Source of the DNA: Burkholderiales bacterium
GTDB taxonomy: Bacteria > Pseudomonadota > Gammaproteobacteria > Burkholderiales > SG8-39
Reading direction: 5' to 3'
Length of the DNA: 64,000 nucleotides
Assembly (NCBI GenBank): GCA_020845995.1
Contig: JADLES010000089.1
Location: 320-64,319 of the forward strand
Part shown: positions 7,766 through 35,430 of the stretch, one piece after another
Layout: each line of letters starts with the position of its first letter
Numbering within the stretch: position 1 is the stretch's first letter
Notes under the pieces: generated by a model
Databases searched by the model: none
What the model was told of the DNA's origin: nothing
The model's input: only the letters and a program-made list of their open reading frames with translations
Translations under genes and position numbers: made by a program

Positions 7766-7831
7766 ATGCGACGCTGGTTTTTCGGCTATTTCTTCACCTT
7801 CCCGCGCCCTCTGGCGGAGGGGAACGGCTAG
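7766..7831 (+). CDS. Putative aromatic-amino-acid leader peptide (MRRWFFGYFFTFPRPLAEGNG)
   Basis: 21-codon ORF 91 nt upstream of the DAHP synthase start. Seven of residues 4-12 are aromatic (1 Trp, 1 Tyr, 5 Phe). FFTFP resembles the end of E. coli PheL. A terminator/antiterminator pair follows. Confidence 0.55.
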   Translation: MRRWFFGYFFTFPRPLAEGNG

Positions 7832-7855: not shown

Positions 7856-7893
7856 AACCGCCAGAGCAGAGATGCCTGGCGGTTTTTGTTTTT
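7856..7893 (+). terminator. Attenuator: intrinsic terminator in the DAHP synthase leader
   Basis: Stem AACCGCCAG (7856-7864) / CTGGCGGTT (7876-7884), 11-nt loop, then TTTTTGTTTTT. An alternative 9-bp pairing is CTCTGGCGG (7809-7817, inside the leader ORF) with CCGCCAGAG (7858-7866). Confidence 0.6.
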
Positions 7894-7921
7894 CGGGGAC
7901 GCCCCGCAACCAGGACCTGCC

Positions 7922-9010
7922 ATGAGCACCCACATCGACGACAAGACCTCGCTGACCGACGACGAGCGCATCGAGAACATCGTGCCGCTGCCTCCGCCCG
8001 AGAACCTGATCCGCTTCTTCCCGATCCAGGGCACGACCGTGGAGCGCCTGGTGGCCGACACGCGCAAGCGCGTGCGCGAGATCGTGCGCGGCAAGTCCGA
8101 CCGGCTGCTGGTGATCATCGGGCCGTGCTCGATCCATGACCCCGCCGCCGCGATCGGCTATGCGGAAAAGCTTCTCCTCGAAAGAAAGAAGCATGAAGGC
8201 GAGCTGGAAGTCGTCATGCGCGTGTACTTCGAGAAGCCGCGCACCACGGTGGGCTGGAAGGGGCTGATCAACGACCCGTACCTGAACGGCAGCTTTCGCA
8301 TCAACGAGGGCCTGCGCATCGCCAGGGACCTGCTCGTGCGCATCAGCCGCGCCGGCGTGCCGGCGGGCTGCGAGTTCCTCGACGTCATCTCGCCGCAATA
8401 CATCGGCGACCTGGTGTCCTGGGGCGCGATCGGCGCGCGCACCACGGAATCGCAGGTGCACCGCGAGCTCGCCTCGGGGCTGTCGGCGCCGGTCGGCTTC
8501 AAGAACGGCACCGACGGCAACGTGCGCATCGCCGTGGACGCGATTCTCGCCGCCCGGCAGAAGCACCACTTCCTCTCGGTGCACAAGAGCGGGCAGGTAT
8601 CAATCGTCGAGACGCGCGGCAACGAGGACTGCCACGTCATCCTGCGCGGCGGCAAGGCACCGAACTACGACGCCGCCAGCGTCGCCGCCGCCTGCGCCGA
8701 GCTGGCGACCGCAAAGCTCGACTGCCGGCTGATGATCGATCTCTCGCACGCCAACGCGGAAAAGAATTTCAGGCGCCAACTCGATGTCGCGCGCGACGTC
8801 GGCGCGCAGATCGCCGCCGGCGCGCGCTGCATCATCGGCGCGATGGTCGAATCGCACCTCGTAGAGGGCCGGCAGGAGCTGGCGGCCGGCAAGCCGCTCG
8901 CCTTCGGCCAGAGCATCACCGATCCCTGCCTGGGCTGGGAGGACTCGGTGACGCTGCTCGGCGTGCTGGCCGACGCGGTCAAGGCGCGCCGGAAGAAGGG
9001 CAAACGCTGA
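7922..9010 (+). CDS. aroG: 3-deoxy-7-phosphoheptulonate (DAHP) synthase, class I
   Basis: Contains [50 protein letters not shown] and the GFKNGTDG motifs. ATG at 7922. The isozyme (Phe, Tyr or Trp sensitive) is not determinable; the symbol is a best guess from the Phe-rich leader. Confidence 0.95.
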   Translation: MSTHIDDKTSLTDDERIENIVPLPPPENLIRFFPIQGTTVERLVADTRKRVREIVRGKSDRLLVIIGPCSIHDPAAAIGYAEKLLLERKKHEGELEVVMRVYFEKPRTTVGWKGLINDPYLNGSFRINEGLRIARDLLVRISRAGVPAGCEFLDVISPQYIGDLVSWGAIGARTTESQVHRELASGLSAPVGFKNGTDGNVRIAVDAILAARQKHHFLSVHKSGQVSIVETRGNEDCHVILRGGKAPNYDAASVAAACAELATAKLDCRLMIDLSHANAEKNFRRQLDVARDVGAQIAAGARCIIGAMVESHLVEGRQELAAGKPLAFGQSITDPCLGWEDSVTLLGVLADAVKARRKKGKR

Positions 9011-9039: not shown

Positions 9040-9744
9040 ATGATGATCGTCGCCGGCGCGTACTTCGTGTTCGGCCTCACCGGCTTCGGCTCGACGGTGA
9101 TCGCGCTGCCGCTGCTGGTGCATTTCTTTCCGCTCAAGTTCGCGGTGTCCCTGCTGATGCTGCTCGACCTGGCGGTGCTGGCGCTGTTCGGCGCGCGCCT
9201 GCGGCGCGGCCTGCGGCTGGACGAAATCGGCTGGCTGCTGCCGTCCATGCTGGCCGGCATGGCGGTGGGGCTCACGCTGCTGATCACGGCGCCCGAGCGG
9301 CCGCTGCTCGCCGTGCTGGGCCTGTTCCTGCTCTGCTACGCGGCCTGGGGCCTCGCGCGGCCGGCGGGCCCGCCGCGGCTCGCGCGGGGCTGGTGCGTGC
9401 CGGTCGGCCTTGCCGGCGGCGCATTCTCCGCGCTGTTCGGCACGGGCGGCGTGCTGTTCGCGGTCTACAACGCCGGCCGCCTGAGGGACGCCGCCGAACT
9501 GCGCGCCAACAACGCGGCCATGATCCTGCTGTCCTCGTCGCTGCGCCTGGTGCTGTTCGGCGCGGTCGGCCTGCTCGCGCAGGACGGACTGCTCACGACC
9601 GCGCTCGCGCTCGCGCCCGCGCTCGCGCTCGGCTTCTGGCTCGGCGGGCGCGCCAACGCGGCGGTGTCCGCGGCCGCGGTGGTGAAAGCGGTGTACGCTT
9701 TACTGGTGATCGCGGGCCTGACGCTACTCGCGCGCTCCCTTTGA
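9040..9744 (+). CDS. TauE/SafE (DUF81) family membrane transporter
   Basis: 234 aa and polytopic. GLTGFGSTVIALPLL and a repeated half (GLAGGAFSALFGTGG) are typical of the sulfite-exporter TauE/SafE family. Confidence 0.8.
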   Translation: MMIVAGAYFVFGLTGFGSTVIALPLLVHFFPLKFAVSLLMLLDLAVLALFGARLRRGLRLDEIGWLLPSMLAGMAVGLTLLITAPERPLLAVLGLFLLCYAAWGLARPAGPPRLARGWCVPVGLAGGAFSALFGTGGVLFAVYNAGRLRDAAELRANNAAMILLSSSLRLVLFGAVGLLAQDGLLTTALALAPALALGFWLGGRANAAVSAAAVVKAVYALLVIAGLTLLARSL

Positions 9745-9752
9745 CGGCGCCC

Positions 9753-11240
9753 ATGTCCAGGCGCTGGCTGCCGCTCGCGCTCGCCGCGACGCTCGCATAC
9801 CGGCTCTGGTTGGCGGCCGTCGCGCCGGTCACCGCGGACGAGGCCTATTTCATCCTCTGGGGCCGCGCGCCGGCGCTGGGATACTACGACCACCCGCCGC
9901 TGGTGGGCTGGCTGCTCGCGCCGCTCGCGGCGTTGACGGACTCCGCCTGGGCGCTGCGCCTGCCGGCGGTGCTCGCGCCTGTGCTGGCCGCGCTGATGGT
10001 GCGCGCCGCGCTGCGCCGCTGGTTCGGGCGCGACCGGGAGACCGCCGACCTCGCCGCGCTCGCCGTGCTGCTCGCCCCAGCGAGCGCATGGAGCGTGCTG
10101 ATCACCACCGACGCGCCACTGGCGGTGTTCTCGCTCGCGTCGCTGCTCGTCTTCGCGCGCGCGGCGCAGGCGGGCCGGGGGCGCCTGTTCCTCGCCGCCG
10201 GCGCGCTGCTCGGGCTCGCGTTCCTGTCGAAGTACCTGGCCGTGCTGCTGGGCCTCGCCTATCTCGCCTGGGCGCTGCTCTCGCGCAGGCCAGCGGCGGC
10301 GCTGCTCGTGTTCCTGGGCGCCCTGCCGTTCGGCCTGCTGAACCTGTACTGGAATTACGAGGCCTGCTGGTGCAACGTGATGTTCAACGCGATCAATCGC
10401 CACGACGGGGAGGACAGCGGCTGGTCGCTCGCCACCCCGGCGCTCTACGCCGTCTCGCTCGCTTACCTGGCCGCGCCGCTGCTGTGGTTCGCCTGGCGCG
10501 GGCGCGGGCGGCTGCGCGAAGCCTGGCGGCGGCCCGCCGAGCGCGCGCTGCTGCTCGCCTGGCTGCTGCCGCTCGCGGCCTTCGCCGCGTTGAGCCCGGT
10601 CAGGCGCATTGGGCTGCACTGGCTGCTCGCGTTCCTGCCGGCGCTCGCGCTGAGCGTCGCGCTCGCGCTGCAGCGCGATGCGTTGCGCTGGAGCGTGCGC
10701 GCTTTCGGCCTGCTCGCCGTGCTGCAAGCGGCGGTGATCATCGGCGTGCTCGCCGCGCCGATCGATGCCTGGCAGTCCAGCCGCTTCTACTCGCGGCTGG
10801 CGTTTCCGGGCCGCGTGCCGGAGCTTGCGGCGGTGATCGCGCCGGACCGGCCGGGCAAGGCGCTGGCGACCGACAGTTATGCATCGGCGGCGCTGCTCGA
10901 ATACCATTGGCGAGAGCCGGTGGCGGTGTTCGGCAGGGGCACCTCGCACGCGCGCCAGGACGACATCGACACCGACTGGCGCGCGCTCGCGGGCCGGGAC
11001 CTGCTGATCCTGCGGCGCGATGCCCCGCTCGCCCGGGACTACGCGCCGTACTTCCGCGAGATCCGGGTCCATCGCTATGCGCTCGGCGGGCGCGACTTCC
11101 ATGCCGTGAGCGGCTTCGGCTTCGACTACGAGGCCTACCGCAAAGGAGTGCTCGCCGACATCCGCGCGCGCTTCTATGCGATACCGGCGGCCCTGCCGGT
11201 GGGGACTTGCTACTTTTTGGAGCGCTACTTTCCCGGATGA
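9753..11240 (+). CDS. GT-C fold glycosyltransferase (family 39 / ArnT-PMT_2-like), polytopic membrane protein
   Basis: ATG at 9753, 495 aa. N-terminal motif TADEAYFILWGRAPALGYYDHPPLVGWL is the DE...YxDxPP signature of ArnT/PMT-type enzymes. About 10 or more hydrophobic segments plus a soluble C-terminal domain. Confidence 0.85.
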   Translation: MSRRWLPLALAATLAYRLWLAAVAPVTADEAYFILWGRAPALGYYDHPPLVGWLLAPLAALTDSAWALRLPAVLAPVLAALMVRAALRRWFGRDRETADLAALAVLLAPASAWSVLITTDAPLAVFSLASLLVFARAAQAGRGRLFLAAGALLGLAFLSKYLAVLLGLAYLAWALLSRRPAAALLVFLGALPFGLLNLYWNYEACWCNVMFNAINRHDGEDSGWSLATPALYAVSLAYLAAPLLWFAWRGRGRLREAWRRPAERALLLAWLLPLAAFAALSPVRRIGLHWLLAFLPALALSVALALQRDALRWSVRAFGLLAVLQAAVIIGVLAAPIDAWQSSRFYSRLAFPGRVPELAAVIAPDRPGKALATDSYASAALLEYHWREPVAVFGRGTSHARQDDIDTDWRALAGRDLLILRRDAPLARDYAPYFREIRVHRYALGGRDFHAVSGFGFDYEAYRKGVLADIRARFYAIPAALPVGTCYFLERYFPG

Positions 11241-12109
11241 GCGCGGCACGCGCGCTCCTCGAGTTGCTGCGCCCGCGGCAATGGCTGAAGAACGCGTTCG
11301 TGCTGGTGGGTCTCGTGTTCGGGCACGCCTGGCGCGATCCGGAACTGGCGATCGCGGCATTGTGGGCGACGCTCGCGTTCTGCCTCGCCTCGGGCGCCGC
11401 GTATGCGTTCAACGATGCGCGCGATGCGGCGCAGGATCGCGAGCATCCCGACAAGCGCCGCCGGCCGGTGGCGCGTGGCGCCGTCGCGCCGGCGCGTGCG
11501 ACCGCGGTGTCCGGGCTGGTGGCGGCCGCTTCGCTGCTTGCCGGCGCCTGCGCCGGCGCGCGGGTGGCGGCGATTGTCGCGTTCTACCTCGTCCTCAGCG
11601 CTCTCTACACGCTGTGGCTGAAGCGGGTGCGGATGCTGGACGTGGGCGCGATCGCCCTCGGCTTCATGCTGCGCCTGCTCGCCGGCACGCTCGGCATTGG
11701 CATCGAGCCCTCGAACTGGCTGCTCGCTTGCGGACTGCTGCTGACGCTGTTTCTCGGGCTCGCCAAGCGGCGCGCGGAGCTGGAGCGGCTGGCCGCGGAA
11801 GCCCCGCGGCACCGCGCGGTTCTCGCCGGCTACAGCGCGCGCGGGCTGGACCGGGCGATCGCGCTGTGCGCCGCGGGCATGGTCGCGGCCTATGCCTGGT
11901 ACACGCTGGCGGAGGAAACCGCGCGCCTGCACGGCACGCGCAGCCTCGTGCTGACGCTGCCGTGGGTGCTGCTCGGAACCCTGCGCTACCTCTCGCGCAT
12001 GCGCTCGCGTGGCGCCGGCGGCGATCCGGCCGAAGAGCTGCTGCGCGACCCGTTGCTCGCCGCCGCGGTCGCGGGCTGGGCGGGGACCGTGCTCTGGCTC
12101 ATCGGCTAG
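11237..12109 (+). CDS. UbiA-family prenyltransferase, decaprenyl-phosphate phosphoribosyltransferase-like
   Basis: The ATG overlaps the upstream stop (ATGA). 290 aa. LRPRQWLKNAFV start, NDARDAAQDREHPDKRRRPVARG (NDxxDxxxD) and a second Asp-rich region are typical of the Rv3806c-like UbiA subfamily. Confidence 0.85.
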   Translation: MSAARALLELLRPRQWLKNAFVLVGLVFGHAWRDPELAIAALWATLAFCLASGAAYAFNDARDAAQDREHPDKRRRPVARGAVAPARATAVSGLVAAASLLAGACAGARVAAIVAFYLVLSALYTLWLKRVRMLDVGAIALGFMLRLLAGTLGIGIEPSNWLLACGLLLTLFLGLAKRRAELERLAAEAPRHRAVLAGYSARGLDRAIALCAAGMVAAYAWYTLAEETARLHGTRSLVLTLPWVLLGTLRYLSRMRSRGAGGDPAEELLRDPLLAAAVAGWAGTVLWLIG

Positions 12110-12138
12110 AATTCCACGCAGGAGCCGCATTCCGACCC

Positions 12139-12681
12139 ATGGCCGAACGTCCCGCGCATTTCGCCCACCTCGAGCACCTCGGGGACGCGACCCGGTTTTC
12201 GCCGCAGATTCATGCGCTCATCCCGCGCTGCGACCTGCTGGAGAATTTCTCGCCCGCGGAGGTGCGGCTGCTCGCGCATTTCATGGACGTCTACCAGGCG
12301 CCGGCGGGAACCGAGATCATTCGCGAGGGCGAGAACGGCGACTTCATGCTGATGCTGATCGAGGGCCGGGTCGAAGTGCTCAAGCGCGACCGCTGGAAGG
12401 TGCCGCAGATGATCGCGCAGGTCGAGGCCGGCAAGACCCTGGGGGAGATGTCGATGATCGACGGCGAGGCGCGCTTCGCGACCTGCGTCGCCGCCGAGCC
12501 GACGGTGCTGGCGGTGCTCGACCGCGAAAACCTGGCGCGCATCATCGTCGAGCAGCCGATGCTGGGCGCGAAGATCCTGATGCAGATGGTGCTGATGCTG
12601 TCGCAGCGGCTGCGCTCGACCAGCGCCCGCCTGCTGGCGATGATGGACGAGCAGTCGCACCGCGCGACCAACTTCCTGTAA
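12139..12681 (+). CDS. Stand-alone cyclic-nucleotide-binding domain protein
   Basis: 180 aa. CAP-effector-domain beta-roll with FMLMLIEGRVEV and phosphate-binding-cassette-like GEMSMIDGEARFATCVA. No DNA-binding or enzymatic domain is attached. Confidence 0.85.
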   Translation: MAERPAHFAHLEHLGDATRFSPQIHALIPRCDLLENFSPAEVRLLAHFMDVYQAPAGTEIIREGENGDFMLMLIEGRVEVLKRDRWKVPQMIAQVEAGKTLGEMSMIDGEARFATCVAAEPTVLAVLDRENLARIIVEQPMLGAKILMQMVLMLSQRLRSTSARLLAMMDEQSHRATNFL

Positions 12682-12711
12682 GCCGCGCCGGCCCGCGGCG
12701 ACGAACGGGCG

Positions 12712-14883
12712 GTGGAAAGGCGCCTCCTGAAAGAGTCCCGGATCGTCGTGCTCGCCCTGCTGGCGGCGCTCGCCGCCGCGTTCTTCGCGCTGGGCGGGCA
12801 CCGCTACCTGAGCTTCGCCGCCGTCAAGGCCGGGCAGGCGGCGATTCTGCAGTTCTACGCCGCGCGCCCCTGGGAGACCGCGGCGGGATTCTTCCTCGTC
12901 TACGTCGCGCTCACCGGCCTGTCGCTGCCCGGCGCGGCGGTGATGACCATCGCCGGGGGCGCGATCTTCGGCCTGCTCTGGGGCACGATGATCGTGTCGT
13001 TTGCGTCATCGATCGGGGCGACGCTGGCGTTCCTCGCCTCGCGCTTCGTGCTGCGCGACTGGGTGCAGACGAAGTTCGGGCACCACCTGCGCGCGATCCA
13101 TGCGGGCATCGAGCGCGAGGGCGGCTTCTATCTGTTCACGCTGCGCCTCATTCCGCTGGTGCCATTCTTCGCCATCAACCTGGCGATGGGGCTGACTCCG
13201 ATCTGCGCCTGGCGCTTCTACTGGGTGAGCCAGCTCGGCATGCTCGCGGGGACGATCGTCTACGTGAACGCGGGGACGCAGCTGGGCGCGCTCGACTCGG
13301 CGGCGGGAATTCTCTCGCCGGGGCTGATCGGCGCGTTCGCGCTCCTCGGTTTCTTCCCGCTCATCGCGAAAAAGACCGTCGAGGCCGCCAAATCGCGCCG
13401 CGTCTACGCCCCCTGGGCGGCGCGCAGGCCCGAGCGCTTCGACCGCAACCTGGTGGTGATCGGCGCGGGTTCGGCGGGGCTGGTGGCGGCCTACATCGCG
13501 GCGGCGGCCAAGGCGCGGGTGACGCTGGTCGAGAAACACAGGATGGGGGGCGACTGCCTCAACACGGGCTGTGTACCCTCGAAGGCGCTGCTTCGTTCCG
13601 CGAAATTTCTCGCCCTGGCGAAGAAGTCGAAGGATCTGGGAATAAGGTCGACGCAGGTCGAATTCGACTTCGCCGACGTCATGGCGCGCGTGCGGCGAAT
13701 CGTGAAGACGATCGAGCCGCACGATTCGGTCGAGCGTTATTCCGGGCTTGGCGTGGAGTGCATCCACGGCGAGGCGAGACTGGTTTCGCCTTGGGAAGTT
13801 GAAATCCGGACGGAACAGCAGAGGAACATCCGTCTGACCACACGGTCCATCGTCATCGCGGCGGGCGCGCGGCCGTTCGTTCCGCCGATTCCGGGAATCG
13901 AGGACGTGGACTGCCTCACTTCCGACACCTTGTGGGGTCTGCGCGAGCTGCCGGCGCGGCTGCTGGTGCTGGGCGGCGGGCCGGTCGGCTGCGAACTGGC
14001 GCAGGCCTTCGCGCGCCTGGGTTCGAAGGTGACGCAGGTGGAGATGCTCCCGCGCCTGCTGCCGCGCGAGGACCCGGAAGTCTCGGAGCTGATCCGCGCG
14101 AAATTCGTGGAGGAGGGGATCGCCGTGCTCACCGGGCACAAGGCGAAGCAGTTCCTGCGCGATGGCGAACGCAAGATCCTCATCTGCGAGCACCAGAGCA
14201 GGGACATCGCCGTCGAGTTCGACGCCCTGCTGTGCGCGGTGGGGCGCGTCGCCCGTACCGCGGGCTACGGTCTGGAAGAGCTCGGCATCCCGATATCGGC
14301 GGCGCGCACGGTGCGGACCAACGAGTTCCTGCAGACTTCGTTCCCCAACATCTACGCCTGCGGCGACGTCGCCGGGCCTTTCCAGTTCACGCATGCCGCG
14401 TCGCACCAGGCCTGGTACGCCGCAGTCAACGCGCTGTTCGGCGGCGTGAAGAAATTCCGTGCCGACTACTCGGTGATTCCCTGGGCCACCTTCACGGATC
14501 CGGAGGTCGCGCGCGTGGGCCTGTCCGAAAGCGAGGCGAAGGAGCGAGGCATCCCGCACGAGGTGACCGTGTACGGCATCGAGGAACTCGACCGCGCGAT
14601 CGCCGACGGCACCGCGCAGGGTATGGTTAAGGTGCTCACGGTCCCGGGCAAGGACCGGATCCTCGGCGCCGCCATCGTCGGCGAGCATGCGGGCGACCTG
14701 ATTGCCGAGTATGTCGCCGCGATGCGCCACGGCCTCGGCATGAACAAGATCCTGGGCACCATCCATATCTATCCCACGCTCGCCGAAGCCAACAAGTACG
14801 CCGCCGGCGCGTGGAAAAAGGCGCACGCGCCACAGCGGCTGCTGCGCGCGGTGGAAAAATTCCATGCCTGGCGCAGGGGTTGA
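12712..14883 (+). CDS. Fusion protein: DedA/TVP38-TMEM64 membrane domain + class I pyridine-nucleotide-disulfide oxidoreductase
   Basis: 723 aa with a GTG start. The N-terminal ~230 aa are SNARE-associated/DedA-like (FTLRLIPLVPFFAINLAMG). The C-terminus has GAGSAGLVAAY (FAD), redox-active GGDCLNTGCVPSK (CxxxxC), GGGPVGCELAQ (NAD(P)H) and HIYPTLAE (His-Glu dyad). Confidence 0.9.
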   Translation: MERRLLKESRIVVLALLAALAAAFFALGGHRYLSFAAVKAGQAAILQFYAARPWETAAGFFLVYVALTGLSLPGAAVMTIAGGAIFGLLWGTMIVSFASSIGATLAFLASRFVLRDWVQTKFGHHLRAIHAGIEREGGFYLFTLRLIPLVPFFAINLAMGLTPICAWRFYWVSQLGMLAGTIVYVNAGTQLGALDSAAGILSPGLIGAFALLGFFPLIAKKTVEAAKSRRVYAPWAARRPERFDRNLVVIGAGSAGLVAAYIAAAAKARVTLVEKHRMGGDCLNTGCVPSKALLRSAKFLALAKKSKDLGIRSTQVEFDFADVMARVRRIVKTIEPHDSVERYSGLGVECIHGEARLVSPWEVEIRTEQQRNIRLTTRSIVIAAGARPFVPPIPGIEDVDCLTSDTLWGLRELPARLLVLGGGPVGCELAQAFARLGSKVTQVEMLPRLLPREDPEVSELIRAKFVEEGIAVLTGHKAKQFLRDGERKILICEHQSRDIAVEFDALLCAVGRVARTAGYGLEELGIPISAARTVRTNEFLQTSFPNIYACGDVAGPFQFTHAASHQAWYAAVNALFGGVKKFRADYSVIPWATFTDPEVARVGLSESEAKERGIPHEVTVYGIEELDRAIADGTAQGMVKVLTVPGKDRILGAAIVGEHAGDLIAEYVAAMRHGLGMNKILGTIHIYPTLAEANKYAAGAWKKAHAPQRLLRAVEKFHAWRRG

Positions 14884-15550
14884 GCGCCTGTCGATCGTCG
14901 TCCCGGTGCTCAACGAGGCCGGGATCCTCGCGCAGTCGCTACTGGCGCTGGCGCCGCTGCGCGGCCGCGGCCACGAGGTGATCGTCGTGGACGGCGGCAG
15001 CCGGGACGGCACGCCCGCCATCGCCGCGCCGCTTGCCGACCGGGTCCTCGCCGCGCCGCGCGGCCGCGCGCGACAGATGAACGCGGGCGCCGCGGCGGCG
15101 ACCGGTGATGTGCTCCTGTTTCTTCACGCGGATACCGAGTTGCCTCGCGCCGCGGATGAGGCAATTCTCAATGCGGCAAAGACCCGCTCGTGGGGACGAT
15201 TCGACGTGGCGATCGACGGCGCCTCGCCACTGCTTCCCGTCGTCGCCTTCTTCATGAACCAGCGCTCGCGGCTGACCGGCGTCGCCACCGGCGACCAGGC
15301 GATCTTCGTGCGCCGCGCCGGCTTCACCGGCTTCCCGGAAATCGCGCTGATGGAGGATGTCGCCTTCTGCAAGGCGATGAAGCGGCGCTCGCCGCCCGCC
15401 TGCCTGCGCTCGCGCGTGCGCACCTCGGGGCGGCGCTGGGAGCGGCGCGGAGTGCTGCGCACCGTGTTCCTGATGTGGCGGCTGCGCCTCGCCTACTTCC
15501 TCGGCGCTGCGCCCGAGGAGCTTGCGCGGCGCTATGCCGAAGGGCGCTGA
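14864..15550 (+). CDS. Family 2 glycosyltransferase, TIGR04283-like
   Basis: 228 aa with LSIVVPVLNE, VIVVDGGSRDGT and LFLHADT (DxD-like). Overlaps the upstream gene by 20 nt. The subfamily call is from memory of TIGR04283 sequences and was not tested. Confidence 0.8.
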   Translation: MPGAGVERLSIVVPVLNEAGILAQSLLALAPLRGRGHEVIVVDGGSRDGTPAIAAPLADRVLAAPRGRARQMNAGAAAATGDVLLFLHADTELPRAADEAILNAAKTRSWGRFDVAIDGASPLLPVVAFFMNQRSRLTGVATGDQAIFVRRAGFTGFPEIALMEDVAFCKAMKRRSPPACLRSRVRTSGRRWERRGVLRTVFLMWRLRLAYFLGAAPEELARRYAEGR

Positions 15551-16208
15551 GTCCTCGCTGGTCATCGTCTTTGCGCGGGCGCCCACGCCGGGCCGGGTGA
15601 AGACGCGCCTCGCGCCGCTGCTCGGCCGGGAGGGGGCCGCGCGCCTGCACGAGCGGATGCTGGAGAGGGCGATCCGAACGGCGGTTGCCGCGCGCTGCGG
15701 CGAGGTCGAGCTGCACGGCGCGCCGGGAGCGACGCATGCCTTCTTTCGCGGCCTGCGCGGGCGATTCGCGCTGCGCCTGCGCGCGCAGGGACGGGGCGGT
15801 CTCGGTGCGCGCATGCGGCGCGCGTTCGCGCGCGCGTTGCGCCGGCATGCGTACGTGATTCTGATCGGCAGCGACTGCCCGGCGCTGCGTCCCGCGGACC
15901 TGCGCGCGGCGCTGCGGGCGCTGCGCGCGGGCGCCGATGCCGTGCTCAGCCCGGTCGAGGACGGCGGCTACGCGCTGCTCGGCCTGCGCCGCGCGGCCCC
16001 AGAGCTCTTCGCCGGCGTGCGCTGGGGCCGCAACCGGGTCCTGGCGCAGACGCGCAGCCGGCTCGCGCGCCTGGGCTGGCGCCGGCGGGAGCTGCGCACG
16101 CTGTGGGACGTGGACCGGCCGCGGGATGTGGCGCGCCTGCGCAGGTCCGCGAGCCTCGCGTCGTTGGCGGCGGGCCTGCCCGCGGCTATAGCGCGCCCGA
16201 CTTCTTGA
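15534..16208 (+). CDS. DUF2064 / TIGR04282-like nucleotidyl- or glycosyl-transferase
   Basis: The ATG at 15534 overlaps the upstream gene by 17 nt. LVIVFARAPTPGRVKTRLAP and ILIGSDCPAL are typical of DUF2064. Confidence 0.75.
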   Translation: MPKGAESSLVIVFARAPTPGRVKTRLAPLLGREGAARLHERMLERAIRTAVAARCGEVELHGAPGATHAFFRGLRGRFALRLRAQGRGGLGARMRRAFARALRRHAYVILIGSDCPALRPADLRAALRALRAGADAVLSPVEDGGYALLGLRRAAPELFAGVRWGRNRVLAQTRSRLARLGWRRRELRTLWDVDRPRDVARLRRSASLASLAAGLPAAIARPTS

Positions 16209-16842
16209 GCAATTCGTGGATGCGCTCGGCCATCAGCCGGTAGCCGAGCGCGTTGGGGTGAATCTGATCCGATTTGAGGCTGCTGTCCTTGAGGATCCTG
16301 CCGAGCACGTCGCCTTCGTAGGGAATGCGGAATTCCTTGGCGATTTCGGCATAGAAATCCGCCGGGGTCACGGTCAACCCGGGTTCGGGGGTGCCGATGA
16401 GCAGCACGTCGATGCCGCGCGATTTCGCGAGCCGGATCATCGCGCGCAGGTTCTCGGCCGCCTTCGCCTTCGGCAGCCGCCGCAGGAAATCGTTGCCGCC
16501 GTGGCACAGCAGCAGCAGGCGCGGGCGGTGCTCATCCAGGGCTGCCGGCAGCCGCTCGAGGCCCGCCTCGCTCACTTCGCCCGGCACGCCTTCGCGCACC
16601 ACGCGCCGGCCGGAGAGCTTTTCCAGCAGCGCCGGATAGCTCTCGCTCTCGTTCGCCCCCGTGCCGTAGGTCAGGCTGTCGCCGAATGCGAGTATAACGG
16701 CGTCGGCCGGCAGCGGCGCGAGCTGCGGTTTCTGACTGCAGCCTGACGATATCAGCAGCGCGTAGAGCAGGGACGCCGCGAGCATCATCCAGAATCCGGG
16801 GGCGAAACGCGTTTTCCGCGGGCGCAACGCCATGTACGCCAT
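16186..16842 (-). CDS. GDSL/SGNH-family lipase or arylesterase lipoprotein (TesA-like)
   Basis: Lipobox LISSGC, ILAFGDSLTYG (GDSL), LLLCHGGNDF, and the DQIHPN catalytic block. The rest of tracked ORF 16186..18912 is antisense to tctBA and rejected. Confidence 0.85.
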   Translation of the reverse strand: MAYMALRPRKTRFAPGFWMMLAASLLYALLISSGCSQKPQLAPLPADAVILAFGDSLTYGTGANESESYPALLEKLSGRRVVREGVPGEVSEAGLERLPAALDEHRPRLLLLCHGGNDFLRRLPKAKAAENLRAMIRLAKSRGIDVLLIGTPEPGLTVTPADFYAEIAKEFRIPYEGDVLGRILKDSSLKSDQIHPNALGYRLMAERIHELLKKSGAL

Positions 16843-16875
16843 GCTACACTGCCCTATCCCAGGGGGAGGCAGCGA

Positions 16876-20364: not shown

Positions 20365-21084
20365 TCATGCGGTCATCCTGCGCGCAAGATCCACGAAGTC
20401 GCGGGCGTTGTAGTCGAAGTCCGCTTCCGGCTTTACGTCCACTCGCACCTTCGGTCCCATCTCCCTGGGCCGGCGCACGAAGGCGGTGGCGAGGCCGCAG
20501 GCCTGCGCGGCGCGCAGGTCGTCCTTGTGCGCGGCCACCATCATCACCTCGGAAGGTTCGCAGCCGAGCATCGCCGCGGCGCCGAGGTAGGCCTCCGGGT
20601 CAGGCTTGTAGTGGCGAAAGAGCTCCGCCGAGAGCACCGCGTCCCAGGGCAGGCGGCCTCGCTTGGCCATGTTCACCAACAGCGCGACGTTGCCGTTCGA
20701 CAGCGTCGCGATCACATGTCGGCGCTTGAGCAGCGCGAGCCCGCGGCGCGCGTCCGGCCAGGGGTCGAGCCGGTGCCAGACGCGATTGAGGTCGTCGATC
20801 TCATCCTCGGTGAGCGCATCGATGCCGAACCGGGCGAGCAGCCCGTCGAGGATCATGCGGTGCAGCTGGTCGATGTTCATCCACGGCAGTTCGCCCGAGC
20901 GCACGCGCGCCATAGCGGGTCGGTAGCCCGCGCGCCACTCGTCGGTGAACGCCTCCCAGTCGGCGGCGATCTTCTTGCGCCGGCCGAGCGCGCGGCATTC
21001 GCGCAGGATGGAGCCGCGCCAGTCCACCACCGTGCCAAAGACGTCGAAGACCAGAGCGCGGATCCGGCGCGGCAGGGCAAGCAT
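20365..21084 (-). CDS. Haloacid dehalogenase type II (HAD superfamily)
   Basis: Contains FDVFGTVVDW (DxxGT nucleophile motif), TLSNGN, and the FRHYKPDPEAY, AAHKDDLRAA motifs. Confidence 0.9.
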   Translation of the reverse strand: MLALPRRIRALVFDVFGTVVDWRGSILRECRALGRRKKIAADWEAFTDEWRAGYRPAMARVRSGELPWMNIDQLHRMILDGLLARFGIDALTEDEIDDLNRVWHRLDPWPDARRGLALLKRRHVIATLSNGNVALLVNMAKRGRLPWDAVLSAELFRHYKPDPEAYLGAAAMLGCEPSEVMMVAAHKDDLRAAQACGLATAFVRRPREMGPKVRVDVKPEADFDYNARDFVDLARRMTA

Positions 21085-33696: not shown

Positions 33697-35430
33697 ATGA
33701 ACCAGCCCGCCGAACCGATCCCGCCGGTCCCCGCCGGCGCCTGCGACCTCGGGGCGTATCCCGGCGAAAACGCCGAAAAGCGCATCGCCGCCGGCGCCTA
33801 CGACCCGGCCGGCAAGGCGGTGCGCGTGCTCAACCCGCGCGGCACGCCGCCGCCGGCGGCGCTGCGGCCGATGGCGCCGCGGCCCGCGTCGCTGGAGGGG
33901 CGCACAGTCTACTTCGTGGACGTGCGCTTCATGAATGGCGGCGTGTTCCTGGAGGAAATCCGCAAGCTCTTCGCCGAGCAGCTGCCGGGAGTGAAGACGG
34001 AATTTCGGCAAAAGCGCGGCGGCTACACCGAGGACGATCCGGAGCTGTGGGCCGAAGTGAAAGGCAAAGGGGCGCTGGTGGTGATGGCCATCGGCCATTG
34101 CAGCACCTGCGCGCCGGCGGTGGCGGTGCATTGCATGCGGCTGGAAGACATGGGCATCGCCACGGCGCCGCTCGTGACCACGGCTTTCGTGGACCTGGTG
34201 AAAGCGGTCGCGCGCAAGGCCGGGATGCCCGAGCTGCGCTTCAGCTTCGTGCCGCACCCGGTGGGCGGCAAGACGCCCGCGGAGTTGCGCGCGTACGGCA
34301 AGGGAGCGATGGCCGGCCTCGTCGGCGCGCTGACGCGGCCGTTGAGCGAGGCCGAGACGCGCACCGGCGCGCTCGAGCGGCCGGTGCCGCGCCTCCTGGG
34401 CGCGCGCGACGAAGACGAGCTGCACGCGCTCTTTCTCGAAGCGGGCTGGACCGACGGCCTGCCGGTGGTGCTGCCCACCGAGGCGCGCGTCGCGGCGATG
34501 CTCAAGGGCACGAGCCATGCGCCGGGCGAGCCGGTGGGAAAGATGCGCCCCACCGAGACGCAGGAAGACTGGAGCTATACCGTGGAGCAGGTGGCGGTGA
34601 ACGCGGTGATGGCGGGCGCGAAGCCCGAGCACCTGCCGGTGATCCTCGCGCTCGCCGCCACCGAGGTGTCGGCGCTGCACAGCTCGACCAGCTCCTTCGC
34701 GGCGATGGCCGTGGTGAACGGGCCGATCCGCAAGGAAATCGGCATGAACGCGGGCCTCGGGGCGCTCGGGCCGTTCAACCACGCCAACGCCGTCATCGGC
34801 CGCGCCTACGGCCTGCTGTCGCGCAACCTGGGCGGCGGCGCGATTCCGGGCATCACCTACCTCGGCTCGCAGGGCAACCCGCTCAATTATTCCAGCGTCT
34901 GCTTCGCCGAGAACGAGGAGCGCAGCCCCTGGGAGCCGTTCCACGTGCAAAAGGGCTTCCAGGCCGGCGAGAGCGTGGTCAGCGTCTTTCGCGGCCGCGT
35001 CCTCACGCACCTGCTGGAAGTGCGGCAGAAGACCTGGCGCGAGCAGTTCCTCAACCTGGTCGGCGCTTTCACGCCTACGCCGTGGACCAACCTCACGCTG
35101 CTGCTCGAGCCGATCGCGGCGCGCGCGCTGAAGGAGCGCGAGGGCTTCGACTCCAAGCGCAAGCTCGCGCAGTGGTTCCACGACAACGCCAGGCTGCCGG
35201 CGAAGGTCTACTGGGACCACCAGCTCGTCGTCAACTACGTCGAGCCGCAGGCGCGCAAGGGCGTGCAGCCCTTCGCCTCGTACCTCGACATTCCGCCCGA
35301 GGGCATGGTGCCGCGCTTCGCCGACCCGGAGAGGATCGGCGTCGTGGTGGTGGGCGGCGAAAAGAACGCCTACTGGTTCGCCACCGACTTCGACTGGAAG
35401 AAGAGCGAATCGGTGGACCGCTGGCGCTGA
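33697..35430 (+). CDS. Hypothetical 577-aa two-module protein with CSTC (CxxC) motif
   Basis: ATG 1 nt after the SDR stop. The N-terminal module (~aa 60-215) has VVMAIGHCSTCAPAVAVHC. The C-terminal module (~aa 240-577) has GWTDGLPVVLPTE and the NGPIRKEIGMNAGLGALGPFNHAN. No family confidently recognised. Confidence 0.75.
   Translation: MNQPAEPIPPVPAGACDLGAYPGENAEKRIAAGAYDPAGKAVRVLNPRGTPPPAALRPMAPRPASLEGRTVYFVDVRFMNGGVFLEEIRKLFAEQLPGVKTEFRQKRGGYTEDDPELWAEVKGKGALVVMAIGHCSTCAPAVAVHCMRLEDMGIATAPLVTTAFVDLVKAVARKAGMPELRFSFVPHPVGGKTPAELRAYGKGAMAGLVGALTRPLSEAETRTGALERPVPRLLGARDEDELHALFLEAGWTDGLPVVLPTEARVAAMLKGTSHAPGEPVGKMRPTETQEDWSYTVEQVAVNAVMAGAKPEHLPVILALAATEVSALHSSTSSFAAMAVVNGPIRKEIGMNAGLGALGPFNHANAVIGRAYGLLSRNLGGGAIPGITYLGSQGNPLNYSSVCFAENEERSPWEPFHVQKGFQAGESVVSVFRGRVLTHLLEVRQKTWREQFLNLVGAFTPTPWTNLTLLLEPIAARALKEREGFDSKRKLAQWFHDNARLPAKVYWDHQLVVNYVEPQARKGVQPFASYLDIPPEGMVPRFADPERIGVVVVGGEKNAYWFATDFDWKKSESVDRWR

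What the first reader, a model, noticed from the sequence alone, without database searches (positions are those of the whole stretch)
9753..16208. Six-gene translationally coupled operon: GT-C glycosyltransferase, UbiA phosphoribosyltransferase-like enzyme, cNMP sensor, DedA::disulfide reductase, and two 'selenodomain/arsenosugar-associated' transferases
The gene junctions are an ATGA overlap (11237-11240), gaps of 29 and 30 nt, then overlaps of 20 and 17 nt. A TauE/SafE permease gene lies only 8 nt upstream. This leaves little room for internal promoters. UbiA enzymes of the Rv3806c type make polyprenyl-phosphate-pentose donors, and GT-C enzymes consume such donors on the periplasmic face. 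Known examples are mycobacterial arabinan, Pseudomonas pilin D-arabinofuranosylation and Azorhizobium Nod-factor arabinosylation. The TIGR04283-like GT2 and TIGR04282/DUF2064-like proteins belong, as far as I can tell by eye, to families defined only by co-occurrence with a radical SAM (seleno)protein now linked to arsenosugar synthesis. No such radical SAM enzyme, ArsM or DprE1/E2-type epimerase is present here. Instead the operon embeds a stand-alone cyclic-nucleotide-binding protein and a membrane-tethered CxxxxC flavoprotein. My inference is a regulated, redox-linked pathway that builds a polyprenyl-phosphate-linked sugar and transfers it to an envelope target. I am not aware of this combination being described.
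Basis: partly seen in the sequence, partly recalled or inferred. Interest (0 to 1): 0.72.

Follow-up and report, generated by a model that had tools for sequence, protein, structure and literature searches.

The report
Mosaic operon of independent gene cassettes
The tightly packed gene row is real, but it is most likely three separately inherited units sitting side by side at one chromosomal hot-spot, not a single new pathway: a sugar-lipid donor synthase with its periplasmic transferase, a cyclic-nucleotide-binding protein that belongs with the neighbouring aromatic amino-acid gene, and a cut-down copy of the cassette that databases label "arsenosugar biosynthesis".

Summary
Gene coordinates, junctions (-4, +29, +30, -20, -17 nt) and all domain calls hold. 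TIGR04283 and TIGR04282 pass their curated cut-offs.

The single-pathway interpretation is only partly supported. Comparing 160 related loci shows a conserved betaproteobacterial backbone: DAHP synthase - cNMP-binding protein - TctBAC. Optional cassettes are inserted into it.

- **Cassette A** is GT-C + UbiA-type phosphoribosyltransferase. It sits between the DAHP synthase gene and the cNMP gene.
- **Cassette B** is ArsS - unknown protein - DedA::FAD reductase - DUF547 - TIGR04283 - TIGR04282. It sits after the cNMP gene.
- All four states occur: A+B+ 10, A+B- 17, A-B+ 5, A-B- 10.
- B also occurs alone on Burkholderia and Acinetobacter plasmids and a Cupriavidus replicon.

The window carries A plus a reduced B. 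This B has lost ArsS, the unknown protein and DUF547, which sister lineages keep at the same position. The remaining B genes are still under purifying selection.

A resembles the published pentofuranose "three-component" systems but has no linked epimerase, phosphatase or flippase gene. It probably adds ribofuranose. The constant partner of the cNMP gene is the DAHP synthase gene, not the glycosyltransferases.

Verdict: a new variant of known kinds, of moderate interest.

The parts
7886..9010 (+). AroG-type DAHP synthase gene. It is the backbone gene at the head of the co-directional array.
   Evidence: TIGR00034 516 bits; PF00793. It lies directly upstream of GT-C or TauE in 36 UbiA-anchored loci. 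It lies directly upstream of the cNMP gene where cassette A is absent. A terminator-like hairpin at 7773-7786 lies upstream of it.
9040..9744 (+). TauE/SafE-family permease gene. It is an optional insert between the DAHP synthase gene and the rest of the array.
   Evidence: PF01925 77 bits. Present in 8 of the 12 full loci and in none of the A-only genome loci. Also found as DAHPS-TauE-cNMP without GT-C/UbiA (L125, L128).
9753..11240 (+). Cassette A, gene 1: GT-C fold, ArnT-like polyprenyl-phosphate-sugar-dependent glycosyltransferase.
   Evidence: PMT_2 84 bits. AF2 model pLDDT 78, pTM 0.81. Best PDB fold match is ArnT 5F15, E 4e-7, TM 0.60. D29 is invariant and E30 nearly invariant after TM1. 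It is 39-43% identical to GT-Cs in DprE1/DprE2-containing clusters.
11237..12109 (+). Cassette A, gene 2: UbiA-superfamily PRPP:polyprenyl-phosphate phosphoribosyltransferase (PPPRS/DPPRS-like).
   Evidence: NF008977 222.3 bits against a cut-off of 234. Full-length match to Rv3806c 8J8J, E 5.6e-26. R12, K18, Y56, N59, D63, K73, R76, Y124, K129 and K177 correspond to Rv3806c R22, K28, Y70, N73, D77, K87, R90, Y138, K143 and K191. The NDxxDxxxD motif is at nt 11411-11437.
12139..12681 (+). Stand-alone cNMP-binding-domain protein (180 aa). It is a backbone gene, not part of A or B.
   Evidence: PF00027 62 bits. In the phosphate-binding cassette (residues 102-115, nt 12442-12483), the G-E-M-S, D-G and R-x-A positions are invariant in 28 loci. 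It is the most conserved gene of the array, dN/dS 0.05-0.18. It follows the DAHP synthase gene, directly or after TauE, where A is absent.
12712..14883 (+). Cassette B core, gene 1: DedA (TVP38/TMEM64, COG0398-type) membrane domain fused to a class I FAD/NAD(P)H disulfide reductase.
   Evidence: VTT_dom, Pyr_redox_2 and Pyr_redox_dim. C282-LNTG-C287 lies at nt 13555-13572. The H685...E692 dyad is present and there is no C-terminal Cys pair. Orthologues at 50-60% identity are annotated [quoted passage not shown] next to ArsS.
14864..15550 (+). Cassette B core, gene 2: TIGR04283-family GT2 glycosyltransferase.
   Evidence: TIGR04283 259 bits (cut-off 182). The nearest solved relatives are glucosyl-3-phosphoglycerate synthases, and the match is weak.
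15534..16208 (+). Cassette B core, gene 3: TIGR04282/DUF2064 protein, MobA/CofC-like nucleotidyltransferase fold.
   Evidence: TIGR04282 198.5 bits (cut-off 134); DUF2064 102 bits. PDB 3CGX, E 1.3e-19.
16186..16860 (-). Convergent GDSL/SGNH hydrolase gene. It marks the 3' boundary of the array and overlaps the DUF2064 gene's end by 23 nt.
   Evidence: PF13472 82.7 bits. A variable backbone gene: it is absent from L015, L018 and L030 and lies elsewhere in L054.

Best explanation
The array is a mosaic operon at a conserved betaproteobacterial hot-spot. The backbone is aroG-type DAHP synthase - cNMP-binding protein - TctBAC. Three optional units were inserted into it.

1. **TauE permease.**
2. 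**Cassette A (GT-C + UbiA-type phosphoribosyltransferase).** The UbiA enzyme transfers ribose-5-phosphate from PRPP to a polyprenyl phosphate. After dephosphorylation and flipping by enzymes not encoded here, the ArnT-like GT-C uses polyprenyl-P-ribofuranose on the periplasmic face to decorate an unknown envelope acceptor. Ribose is inferred because no epimerase gene is linked.
3. **Cassette B, in reduced form.** The full form is ArsS - unknown protein - DedA::FAD reductase - DUF547 - TIGR04283 - TIGR04282. The window's sublineage kept only the constant core: DedA::FAD reductase, GT2 and DUF2064. This core still functions.

The inferred chemistry of B is as follows. A nucleotidyltransferase-like enzyme activates a sugar-1-phosphate. 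The GT2 transfers the sugar to a small or lipid acceptor. A membrane-tethered NAD(P)H-dependent disulfide reductase and a scramblase-type DedA domain act on the membrane side.

Shown here: gene content, family membership, cassette independence, loss of ArsS and purifying selection. Inferred: substrates, acceptor, co-transcription and any cross-talk between A and B.
For: **Structure and families:**

**Cassette A**
- The full six-gene order occurs only in loci with UbiA at 56% identity or more. Seventeen or more Rhodocyclales-type and Burkholderiales loci have DAHPS-GT-C-UbiA-cNMP with no B within 10 kb.
- In four Burkholderiales loci TctB follows cNMP directly, so B is an insertion.
- Ten of 13 Rv3806c substrate-binding residues are identical, including the 5'-phosphate binders K28 and Y70.
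- The GT-C model matches ArnT best.
- More distant UbiA homologues sit in GT-C-DprE1-DprE2-HAD-UbiA-LPG_synthase_TM clusters. None of those accessory genes has a homologue in the window.

**Cassette B**
- ArsS (TIGR04167, 452 bits), an unknown protein and DUF547 lie inside B in six sister loci and nowhere in the window.
- In the neighbour-joining tree the ArsS-bearing loci are basal and the window falls in an ArsS-less subclade.
- dN/dS is 0.05-0.45 for all six genes within the ArsS-less clade.
- B occurs without A on B. thailandensis, B. glumae and A. portensis plasmids and a large Cupriavidus replicon.

**Independence of A and B**
- In the cNMP-anchored metagenome sample, A+B+ = 10, A+B- = 17, A-B+ = 5 and A-B- = 10.
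- cNMP follows DAHPS, directly or after TauE, where A is absent. The gap is 2 nt in L104.
Against: - A and B have stayed adjacent, co-directional and tightly spaced in more than 20 loci, even after ArsS was cleanly excised. Selection for co-expression would also produce this.
- Both cassettes plausibly handle ribofuranosyl chemistry, and A lacks its own flippase while B carries a DedA domain. Functional cross-talk is therefore not excluded.
- The four-state table counts related lineages, not independent events.
- The tree has no bootstrap support.
- No transcript data exist, and the promoter/terminator scan was uninformative.
- ArsS, a phosphatase or a flippase could lie elsewhere in this genome.
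- No member of TIGR04282, TIGR04283 or the DedA::FAD fusion has been characterised biochemically in the literature I could search.
Confidence: 0.7

Rival explanations
1. Integrated single pathway. All six proteins cooperate. GT2 and DUF2064 prepare or modify the sugar. UbiA loads it on polyprenyl phosphate. The DedA domain flips the lipid-linked donor, with the FAD reductase providing redox control. GT-C transfers the sugar to the envelope, and the cNMP protein gates the system.
For: Junctions are tight and include overlaps, and they are conserved in 12 genome loci and 10 metagenome contigs. A lacks a flippase gene, while B supplies a DedA domain. Another DedA subfamily, COG0586, is thought to flip undecaprenyl phosphate (PMC10127716).
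Against: - A exists without B in 17 or more loci, and B exists without A in 5 metagenome loci and in four plasmid or large-replicon contexts.
- The frequency of B is about the same with A (10/27) as without it (5/15).
- The DedA domain is of the TVP38/COG0398 type, which that paper separates from the undecaprenyl-phosphate flippase subfamily.
- cNMP stays next to DAHP synthase when both cassettes are absent.
Confidence: 0.12
2. The right-hand half is simply the known ArsS-dependent arsenosugar pathway. ArsS, and ArsM, are encoded elsewhere in this genome, so nothing about B is reduced or different.
For: TIGR04283 and TIGR04282 pass their equivalog cut-offs. Orthologous cassettes in sister loci and on plasmids carry ArsS. 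The A. portensis cassette also carries a methyltransferase and an MTA phosphorylase.
Against: - No ArsS lies within 64 kb.
- About half of the B cassettes at this hot-spot lack ArsS: 12 with and 12 without.
- ArsS and DUF547 are lost independently, while the core trio is always kept.
- The role of TIGR04282 and TIGR04283 in arsenosugar synthesis is an annotation by association. Only ArsS itself has been assayed.
- This reading is not exclusive of the best explanation for cassette A.
Confidence: 0.15
3. The B remnant is a decaying leftover with no function after ArsS was lost.
For: ArsS, the unknown protein and DUF547 have been lost relative to the basal sister loci.
Against: The ORFs are intact in at least 6 genome loci and 12 metagenome contigs that lack ArsS. 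dN/dS is 0.15-0.45 for the three genes within the ArsS-less clade. The overlapping start and stop junctions are conserved.
Confidence: 0.03

Closest known systems
Three-component pentofuranose glycosylation systems (Citrobacter youngae ORF15/ORF14/ORF12, Kelly et al. 2024, PMC11127046), and the mycobacterial DPPRS (Rv3806c) with Emb/Aft arabinosyltransferases
   Same: A UbiA-superfamily PRPP:polyprenyl-phosphate phosphoribosyltransferase is encoded next to a GT-C glycosyltransferase. The PRPP and lipid-phosphate binding residues are conserved. The GT-C fold has an acidic pair after TM1.
   Different: No linked phosphoribose phosphatase, flippase (MATE or SMR) or epimerase (DprE1/E2 or ORF13-like). 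The GT-C is a PMT_2/ArnT-like protein, and its relation to GT136 was not tested. The pair sits inside an aroG operon rather than a polysaccharide locus. The acceptor is unknown.
ArsS-associated cassette annotated in RefSeq as "arsenosugar biosynthesis" (TIGR04167 ArsS + TVP38/FAD oxidoreductase + DUF547 + TIGR04283 + TIGR04282), e.g. the Acinetobacter portensis pJNE5-X3 and Burkholderia glumae/thailandensis plasmids
   Same: The homologous proteins are 37-63% identical. Gene order is the same on the Acinetobacter plasmid, and the same gene set is present but rearranged on the Burkholderia plasmids. Sister chromosomal loci carry the complete cassette at the same position.
   Different: The window's copy lacks ArsS, the adjacent unknown 314-342 aa protein and DUF547. 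It has no linked methyltransferase or MTA phosphorylase. It is joined downstream of an unrelated GT-C/UbiA pair.
ArnT (GT83), undecaprenyl-phosphate-L-Ara4N:lipid A transferase
   Same: It is the best structural match to the GT-C model (5F15, TM 0.60). The Pfam family is PMT_2.
   Different: Only 18% identity. No NCBIfam ArnT model matches. No arn genes are nearby. The co-encoded donor synthase is a PRPP-dependent UbiA enzyme, not ArnC.
COG0398 (TVP38/TMEM64) DedA proteins fused to pyridine nucleotide-disulfide oxidoreductase domains (Todor et al. 2023, PMC10127716)
   Same: The fusion is the one reported there as the commonest for the COG0398 subfamily (PF09335 + PF07992 + PF02852).
   Different: That paper gives no function or gene context. 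Here the fusion is shown to be a constant member of the ArsS-type cassette. In Cupriavidus KK10 the two domains occur in the opposite order.
Mercuric reductase MerA and dihydrolipoyl dehydrogenase
   Same: They are the closest solved homologues of the reductase half (E 1e-79 to 1e-62). The CxxxxC redox pair and the His-Glu dyad are present.
   Different: It scores below the MerA and Lpd cut-offs. It has no C-terminal Cys pair for Hg(II) handover, and it is membrane-tethered through DedA.

Membership tests
Decaprenyl/polyprenyl-phosphate phosphoribosyltransferase (DPPRS/PPPRS, Rv3806c type) | Score at or above the curated NCBIfam equivalog cut-off | tested here: not met
   NF008977 scores 222.3 bits against a cut-off of 234. 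NF008978 scores 178 against 207. This is a near miss, and other UbiA subfamilies score 54 bits or less.
Decaprenyl/polyprenyl-phosphate phosphoribosyltransferase (DPPRS/PPPRS, Rv3806c type) | Residues that bind the PRPP pyrophosphate, ribose and 5'-phosphate and the lipid phosphate in the Rv3806c structure | tested here: met
   Ten of 13 are identical: R22, K28, Y70, N73, D77, K87, R90, Y138, K143 and K191. Y157 is replaced by F, a natural variant. Q135 is replaced by S and K208 by A.
Decaprenyl/polyprenyl-phosphate phosphoribosyltransferase (DPPRS/PPPRS, Rv3806c type) | Catalytic transfer of ribose-5-phosphate from PRPP to polyprenyl phosphate | not testable with these tools
   Needs a membrane assay with labelled PRPP.
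Three-component pentofuranose glycosylation system (PMC11127046) | PPPRS and GT-C encoded together | tested here: met
   The two genes overlap by ATGA. A GT-C homologue lies within 10 kb of UbiA in 47 of 80 UbiA-anchored loci, and directly upstream in the DAHPS-linked loci.
Three-component pentofuranose glycosylation system (PMC11127046) | Dedicated flippase and phosphoribose phosphatase (with an epimerase for Araf or Xylf) in the locus | tested here: not met
   No homologue of the HAD phosphatase, DprE1, DprE2 or LPG_synthase_TM proteins of the distant clusters was found in the 64 kb window. MATE and SMR transporters were not searched for.
Three-component pentofuranose glycosylation system (PMC11127046) | GT-C belongs to CAZy GT136 | not tested
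The fold is ArnT-like.
GT-C glycosyltransferases | Multi-TM GT-C fold with a catalytic acidic residue after TM1 | tested here: met
   PMT_2 scores 84 bits. The AF2 model matches ArnT, AglB, PglB, ALG9, Pmt4 and Emb. D29 is invariant and E30 nearly invariant in 50 homologues.
TIGR04283 (GT2, "arsenosugar biosynthesis glycosyltransferase") | Score at or above the equivalog cut-off | tested here: met
   259.1 bits against a cut-off of 182.
TIGR04282 (DUF2064, "arsenosugar biosynthesis glycosyltransferase") | Score at or above the cut-off | tested here: met
   198.5 bits against a cut-off of 134. PDB 3CGX, E 1.3e-19.
ArsS-dependent arsenosugar pathway | A TIGR04167 radical SAM enzyme (ArsS) linked to the cassette | tested here: not met
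   No ArsS homologue in the window (best tblastn E 0.92). It is present at the equivalent position in L007, L009, L013, L015, L018 and L030.
ArsS-dependent arsenosugar pathway | ArsM supplying DMAs(III), and production of arsenosugars | not testable with these tools
   Only a 64 kb window of a MAG is available, and ArsM was not searched for directly.
Mercuric reductase MerA | Score at or above the TIGR02053 cut-off, and a C-terminal Cys pair | tested here: not met
   386.5 bits against a cut-off of 454. The last Cys is at residue 550 of 723 and no CC pair is present.
cNMP-binding (CAP effector) domain proteins | PF00027 above cut-off, and a phosphate-binding cassette with Gly-Glu and Arg | tested here: met
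   62.3 bits against a cut-off of 27.5. G-E-M-S, D-G and R-x-A are invariant in 28 orthologues. Ligand binding itself was not tested.
COG0398/TVP38-type DedA | VTT domain, and assignment to the TVP38/TMEM64 subfamily | tested here: inconclusive
   PF09335 scores 77.5 bits. The subfamily assignment rests on the RefSeq names of 50-58% identical orthologues and on the fusion pattern described in PMC10127716. No COG model was run.

The most novel reading that the evidence does not exclude
In the Burkholderiales clade that carries both cassettes, the ArsS-less trio may have been recruited to serve the adjacent GT-C/UbiA pair. The DedA domain would act as the missing flippase for polyprenyl-phosphate-ribofuranose. 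The GT2 and DUF2064 enzymes would supply or modify a (5-deoxy)ribofuranosyl unit. The result would be a complete periplasmic ribofuranosylation pathway, co-expressed with aroG and a cNMP sensor. A corollary is that the TIGR04282, TIGR04283 and DedA::FAD families are not arsenic-specific.
Probability: 0.1. Interest if true: 0.7.

Novelty: new variant of a known kind. Interest (0 to 1): 0.4.

Why it matters
- **Cassette A.** The GT-C/PPPRS pairing extends the recently defined pentofuranose glycosylation systems into environmental Betaproteobacteria. The form is minimal, with no linked epimerase, phosphatase or flippase gene. It points to an undescribed, probably ribofuranosylated, envelope structure.
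- **Cassette B.** The cassette labelled "arsenosugar biosynthesis" has a constant core of DedA::FAD reductase, TIGR04283 and TIGR04282. This core persists under purifying selection in many lineages after the linked ArsS was lost. That suggests the family names assigned by association may be too narrow, and it gives a concrete test set for their real chemistry.
- **Method.** This is a cautionary example. Tight, overlapping gene junctions did not indicate one pathway. The array is a hot-spot mosaic, which became clear only when the comparison was anchored on more than one gene.

Tried and rejected
**Searches that led nowhere**
- The exact-sequence look-up of the GT2 protein found nothing.
- The 100%-identical UbiA protein is on record only on contigs under 2 kb.
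- The first, 38-sequence UbiA alignment was too diverse for pattern design.
- A sequence search of the PDB with the GT-C protein gave no real hit, so a model and a fold search were used instead.
- Literature searches for TIGR04282, TIGR04283, DUF2064, DUF3641 and TIGR04167 returned only annotation-level mentions.
- The sigma-70/terminator scan found nothing inside the array and is not informative at 70% GC.
- Rfam gave no match in the window.

**Ideas considered and rejected**
- **Arabinofuranose pathway.** No DprE1 or DprE2 homologue is present, although the distant homologous clusters have them.
- **MerA or Lpd identity for the reductase.** It scores below both cut-offs and has no C-terminal Cys pair.
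- **The cNMP protein as a dedicated regulator of GT-C/UbiA.** This was my own interim idea after the UbiA-anchored scan. I dropped it when the cNMP-anchored scan showed cNMP next to DAHP synthase without them.
- **The GDSL hydrolase as part of cassette B.** It is absent from the basal ArsS-bearing loci L015, L018 and L030 and lies elsewhere in L054.
- **Pseudogenisation of the B remnant.** dN/dS argues against it.

Full report
**Source.** The window comes from a roughly 69% GC metagenome-assembled Burkholderiales genome. A 100%-identical UbiA protein is recorded as "MAG: Burkholderiales bacterium".

**1.
- TauE 9040-9744
- GT-C 9753-11240
- UbiA 11237-12109
- cNMP 12139-12681
- DedA::FAD reductase 12712-14883
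- GT2 14864-15550
- DUF2064 15534-16208

The gaps are 8 nt between TauE and GT-C, then -4, +29, +30, -20 and -17 nt. Pfam and NCBIfam confirm every domain call.
- TIGR04283 scores 259 bits (cut-off 182) and TIGR04282 scores 198.5 bits (cut-off 134). Both pass.
- The UbiA protein scores 222.3 bits against the decaprenyl-phosphate phosphoribosyltransferase model NF008977, whose cut-off is 234. This is a near miss.
- The reductase half carries the C282-LNTG-C287 redox pair and a His-Glu dyad. It has no C-terminal Cys pair and scores below the MerA and Lpd cut-offs.

The array ends at a convergent GDSL hydrolase gene. Upstream, an AroG-type DAHP synthase gene lies only 29 nt before TauE. The co-directional unit therefore probably has eight genes.

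**2. UbiA-anchored comparison.**
An alignment of UbiA homologues retrieved 80 species-level genome loci. I scanned them with tblastn using the window's proteins and clustered all neighbouring ORFs. Three tiers appear.
- **UbiA at 56% identity or more to the window.** These loci have the full six-gene order with equally tight junctions: L003, L005, L006, L007, L009, L012, L013, L015, L018, L030 and L067.
- **UbiA at 45-56% identity (Rhodocyclales-type and other Burkholderiales).** These have only DAHP synthase - GT-C - UbiA - cNMP, with no DedA::FAD reductase, GT2 or DUF2064 gene within 10 kb. In four Burkholderiales loci TctB follows cNMP directly. The right-hand half of the window's array is therefore an insertion.
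- **More distant UbiA homologues (Gallionellaceae and others).** These lie in GT-C - DprE1 - DprE2 - HAD - UbiA - LPG_synthase_TM clusters. That is the classical arabinofuranose logic. Their GT-C is 39-43% identical to the window's.

**3. The missing radical SAM enzyme.**
Six sister loci carry about 2 kb extra between the cNMP and DedA::FAD genes. The extra sequence encodes two proteins:
- a Radical_SAM + DUF3641 protein that scores 452 bits on TIGR04167 (ArsS, cut-off 300);
- a 314-342 aa protein with no Pfam or NCBIfam match (absent from L030).

Five of the six also have a DUF547 gene between the DedA::FAD and GT2 genes. None of the three has a homologue anywhere in the window.

In a neighbour-joining tree of the six concatenated proteins, the ArsS-bearing loci are basal. 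The window falls in an ArsS-less subclade with L003, L005, L006 and L067, and L012 lost ArsS separately. The tree has no bootstrap support.

Within the ArsS-less clade all six genes have dN/dS of 0.05-0.45. The remaining B genes are maintained, not decaying.

**4. Cassette B is an independent unit.**
A tblastn search of the plasmid collection found the GT2 protein in 51 records.
- On B. thailandensis and B. glumae plasmids the locus holds ArsS, the unknown protein, an MTA phosphorylase, TIGR04283, TIGR04282 and a [quoted passage not shown]. It also holds thioredoxin, CcdA and DoxX genes.
- On an Acinetobacter portensis plasmid the order is ArsS - DedA::FAD - DUF547 - TIGR04283 - TIGR04282 - methyltransferase - phosphate transporter - MTA phosphorylase.
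- On the 1.67 Mb Cupriavidus KK10 replicon p1 the reductase and DedA parts occur in swapped order.

None of these has a GT-C, UbiA or cNMP homologue.

**5. cNMP-anchored comparison.**
To test the reverse implication, I scanned metagenome contigs with an alignment of divergent cNMP orthologues. Of the 80 loci returned, 42 can be evaluated on both sides.

| State | Loci | Detail |
|---|---|---|
| A+B+ | 10 | 4 with ArsS, 6 without |
| A+B- | 17 | |
| A-B+ | 5 | 4 with ArsS, 1 without |
| A-B- | 10 | |

- Where A is absent, cNMP directly follows the DAHP synthase gene (gap of 2 nt in L104) or TauE.
- B is about as frequent with A (10/27) as without it (5/15).
- ArsS and DUF547 are present or absent independently of each other. 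DedA::FAD + GT2 + DUF2064 is always kept.

The architecture is therefore: DAHPS - [TauE] - [GT-C - UbiA] - cNMP - [ArsS - unknown - DedA::FAD - DUF547 - GT2 - DUF2064] - TctBAC.

These counts are of related lineages, not independent events. What matters is that all four states exist and persist.

**6. How cassette A most likely works.**
The UbiA protein aligns over its full length with M. tuberculosis Rv3806c (8J8J, E 5.6e-26). Ten of the 13 residues that the structure paper identifies as binding PRPP or decaprenyl phosphate are identical. These include K28 and Y70, which hold the 5'-phosphate. That paper states the phosphoribose-binding sites are not conserved between Rv3806c and the prenyltransferases of the UbiA superfamily.

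The GT-C model (pLDDT 78, pTM 0.81) matches ArnT best, then AglB, PglB, ALG9, Pmt4 and Emb. D29 is invariant and E30 nearly invariant after TM1.

This is the donor-synthase plus periplasmic-transferase logic of the published three-component pentofuranose systems (PMC11127046). No epimerase gene is linked, so the sugar is most likely ribofuranose (inference). Dephosphorylation and flipping must be supplied from elsewhere (inference). The acceptor is unknown.

**7. How the B core may work (inference).**
- TIGR04282 has a MobA/CofC-like nucleotidyltransferase fold.
- TIGR04283 is a soluble GT2 related to MftF and glucosyl-3-phosphoglycerate synthase.
- ArsS makes 5'-deoxy-5'-dimethylarsinoyl-adenosine.
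- An MTA phosphorylase is linked to the plasmid cassettes.

Together these suggest a route: 5'-substituted adenosine → ribose-1-phosphate analogue → NDP-sugar → glycoside. The membrane-tethered reductase and the scramblase-type DedA domain would act at the membrane.

Without ArsS, the trio may use another sugar-1-phosphate. None of this has been assayed in the literature I could search.

**8. The cNMP protein.**
It has a canonical phosphate-binding cassette that is invariant in 28 orthologues. It is the most conserved gene of the array. Its constant neighbour is the aroG-type DAHP synthase gene, so it should not be read as a sensor embedded in a glycosylation pathway.

**9. Verdict.**
Each half is a variant of a known kind:
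- a minimal pentofuranose donor/transferase pair;
- an ArsS-less derivative of the cassette annotated for arsenosugar biosynthesis.

Their juxtaposition is best explained by independent insertion at one hot-spot. Cooperation between them is not excluded; I put it at about 0.1.

**Other points.**
- The rest of the window that I checked is housekeeping: RecA, PPK2, PduO, XseA, LpxK, KdsB, Adk and a membrane pyrophosphatase. AlaS is inferred from synteny with L003 and L005.
- Rfam finds nothing in the window.

Noticed in passing
window 7886-9010 and 12139-12681; L104:4832-6486; L151:2366-4022; L154:638-2350: A stand-alone cNMP-binding-domain protein is the constant downstream partner of an AroG-type DAHP synthase gene across Betaproteobacteria. 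The two are separated by only 2-25 nt where no cassette intervenes. What a cyclic-nucleotide-binding protein does next to the first enzyme of aromatic amino-acid synthesis is unexplained.
   Followed up: partly
L007:12486-13430; L018:12401-13429; L087:61-1080 (B. glumae WP_012732796): A 314-342 aa protein with no Pfam or NCBIfam match lies immediately next to ArsS in five of the six chromosomal sister loci and on the Burkholderia plasmids (48-68% identity). It is absent from L030 and from the Acinetobacter plasmid cassette. It is an uncharacterised, frequent ArsS partner.
   Followed up: partly
L014, L021, L022, L025-L028, L032, L043, L051, L068, L083 (around the UbiA match): Gallionellaceae, a Chlamydiales MAG and others carry GT-C - DprE1 - DprE2 - HAD - UbiA - LPG_synthase_TM clusters. 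An MprF-type LPG_synthase_TM protein sits where the published systems have a MATE or SMR flippase, so it is a candidate alternative flippase for polyprenyl-phosphate-arabinofuranose.
   Followed up: partly
L089:6822-8998 (Cupriavidus sp. KK10 replicon p1); L015:13547-16507: The FAD reductase and DedA parts occur in the opposite order in Cupriavidus. In L015 the DedA::FAD reductase ORF runs on in frame into DUF547 (986 aa). Both are domain-shuffling evidence that these parts work together.
   Followed up: no
L086:8033-8914; L088:12518-13381: An S-methyl-5'-thioadenosine phosphorylase gene is linked to TIGR04283/TIGR04282 on the Burkholderia and Acinetobacter plasmids. This suggests that the 5'-substituted adenosine made by ArsS is phosphorolysed to a ribose-1-phosphate analogue.
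   Followed up: no
window 20365-21084 (-); L086:17087-17779; L088:537-1316: A type II haloacid dehalogenase gene (TIGR01428, 175 bits) lies about 4 kb downstream of the array. It also flanks the ArsS cassette on both plasmid types, and it is present in many loci that lack cassette B. This may be coincidence or an accessory role.
   Followed up: no
P0141 (892 aa), P0124 (515 aa), P0224 (454 aa): Some UbiA-type phosphoribosyltransferase homologues are C-terminal domains of much longer proteins. One has about 600 extra N-terminal residues, which could be a GT-C or phosphatase fusion.
   Followed up: no
window 33697-35430 (+): A 577-aa protein has a partial, sub-threshold match to the UGSC family (seleno)protein model (71.8 bits, cut-off 125).
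   Followed up: no
L036:14224-16152 (-) and equivalents in L024, L033, L041, L045, L060: Rhodocyclales-type loci carry a TauE permease fused to tandem universal stress protein domains, a few kb downstream of the cNMP gene. The window instead has a plain TauE upstream of the GT-C.
   Followed up: no
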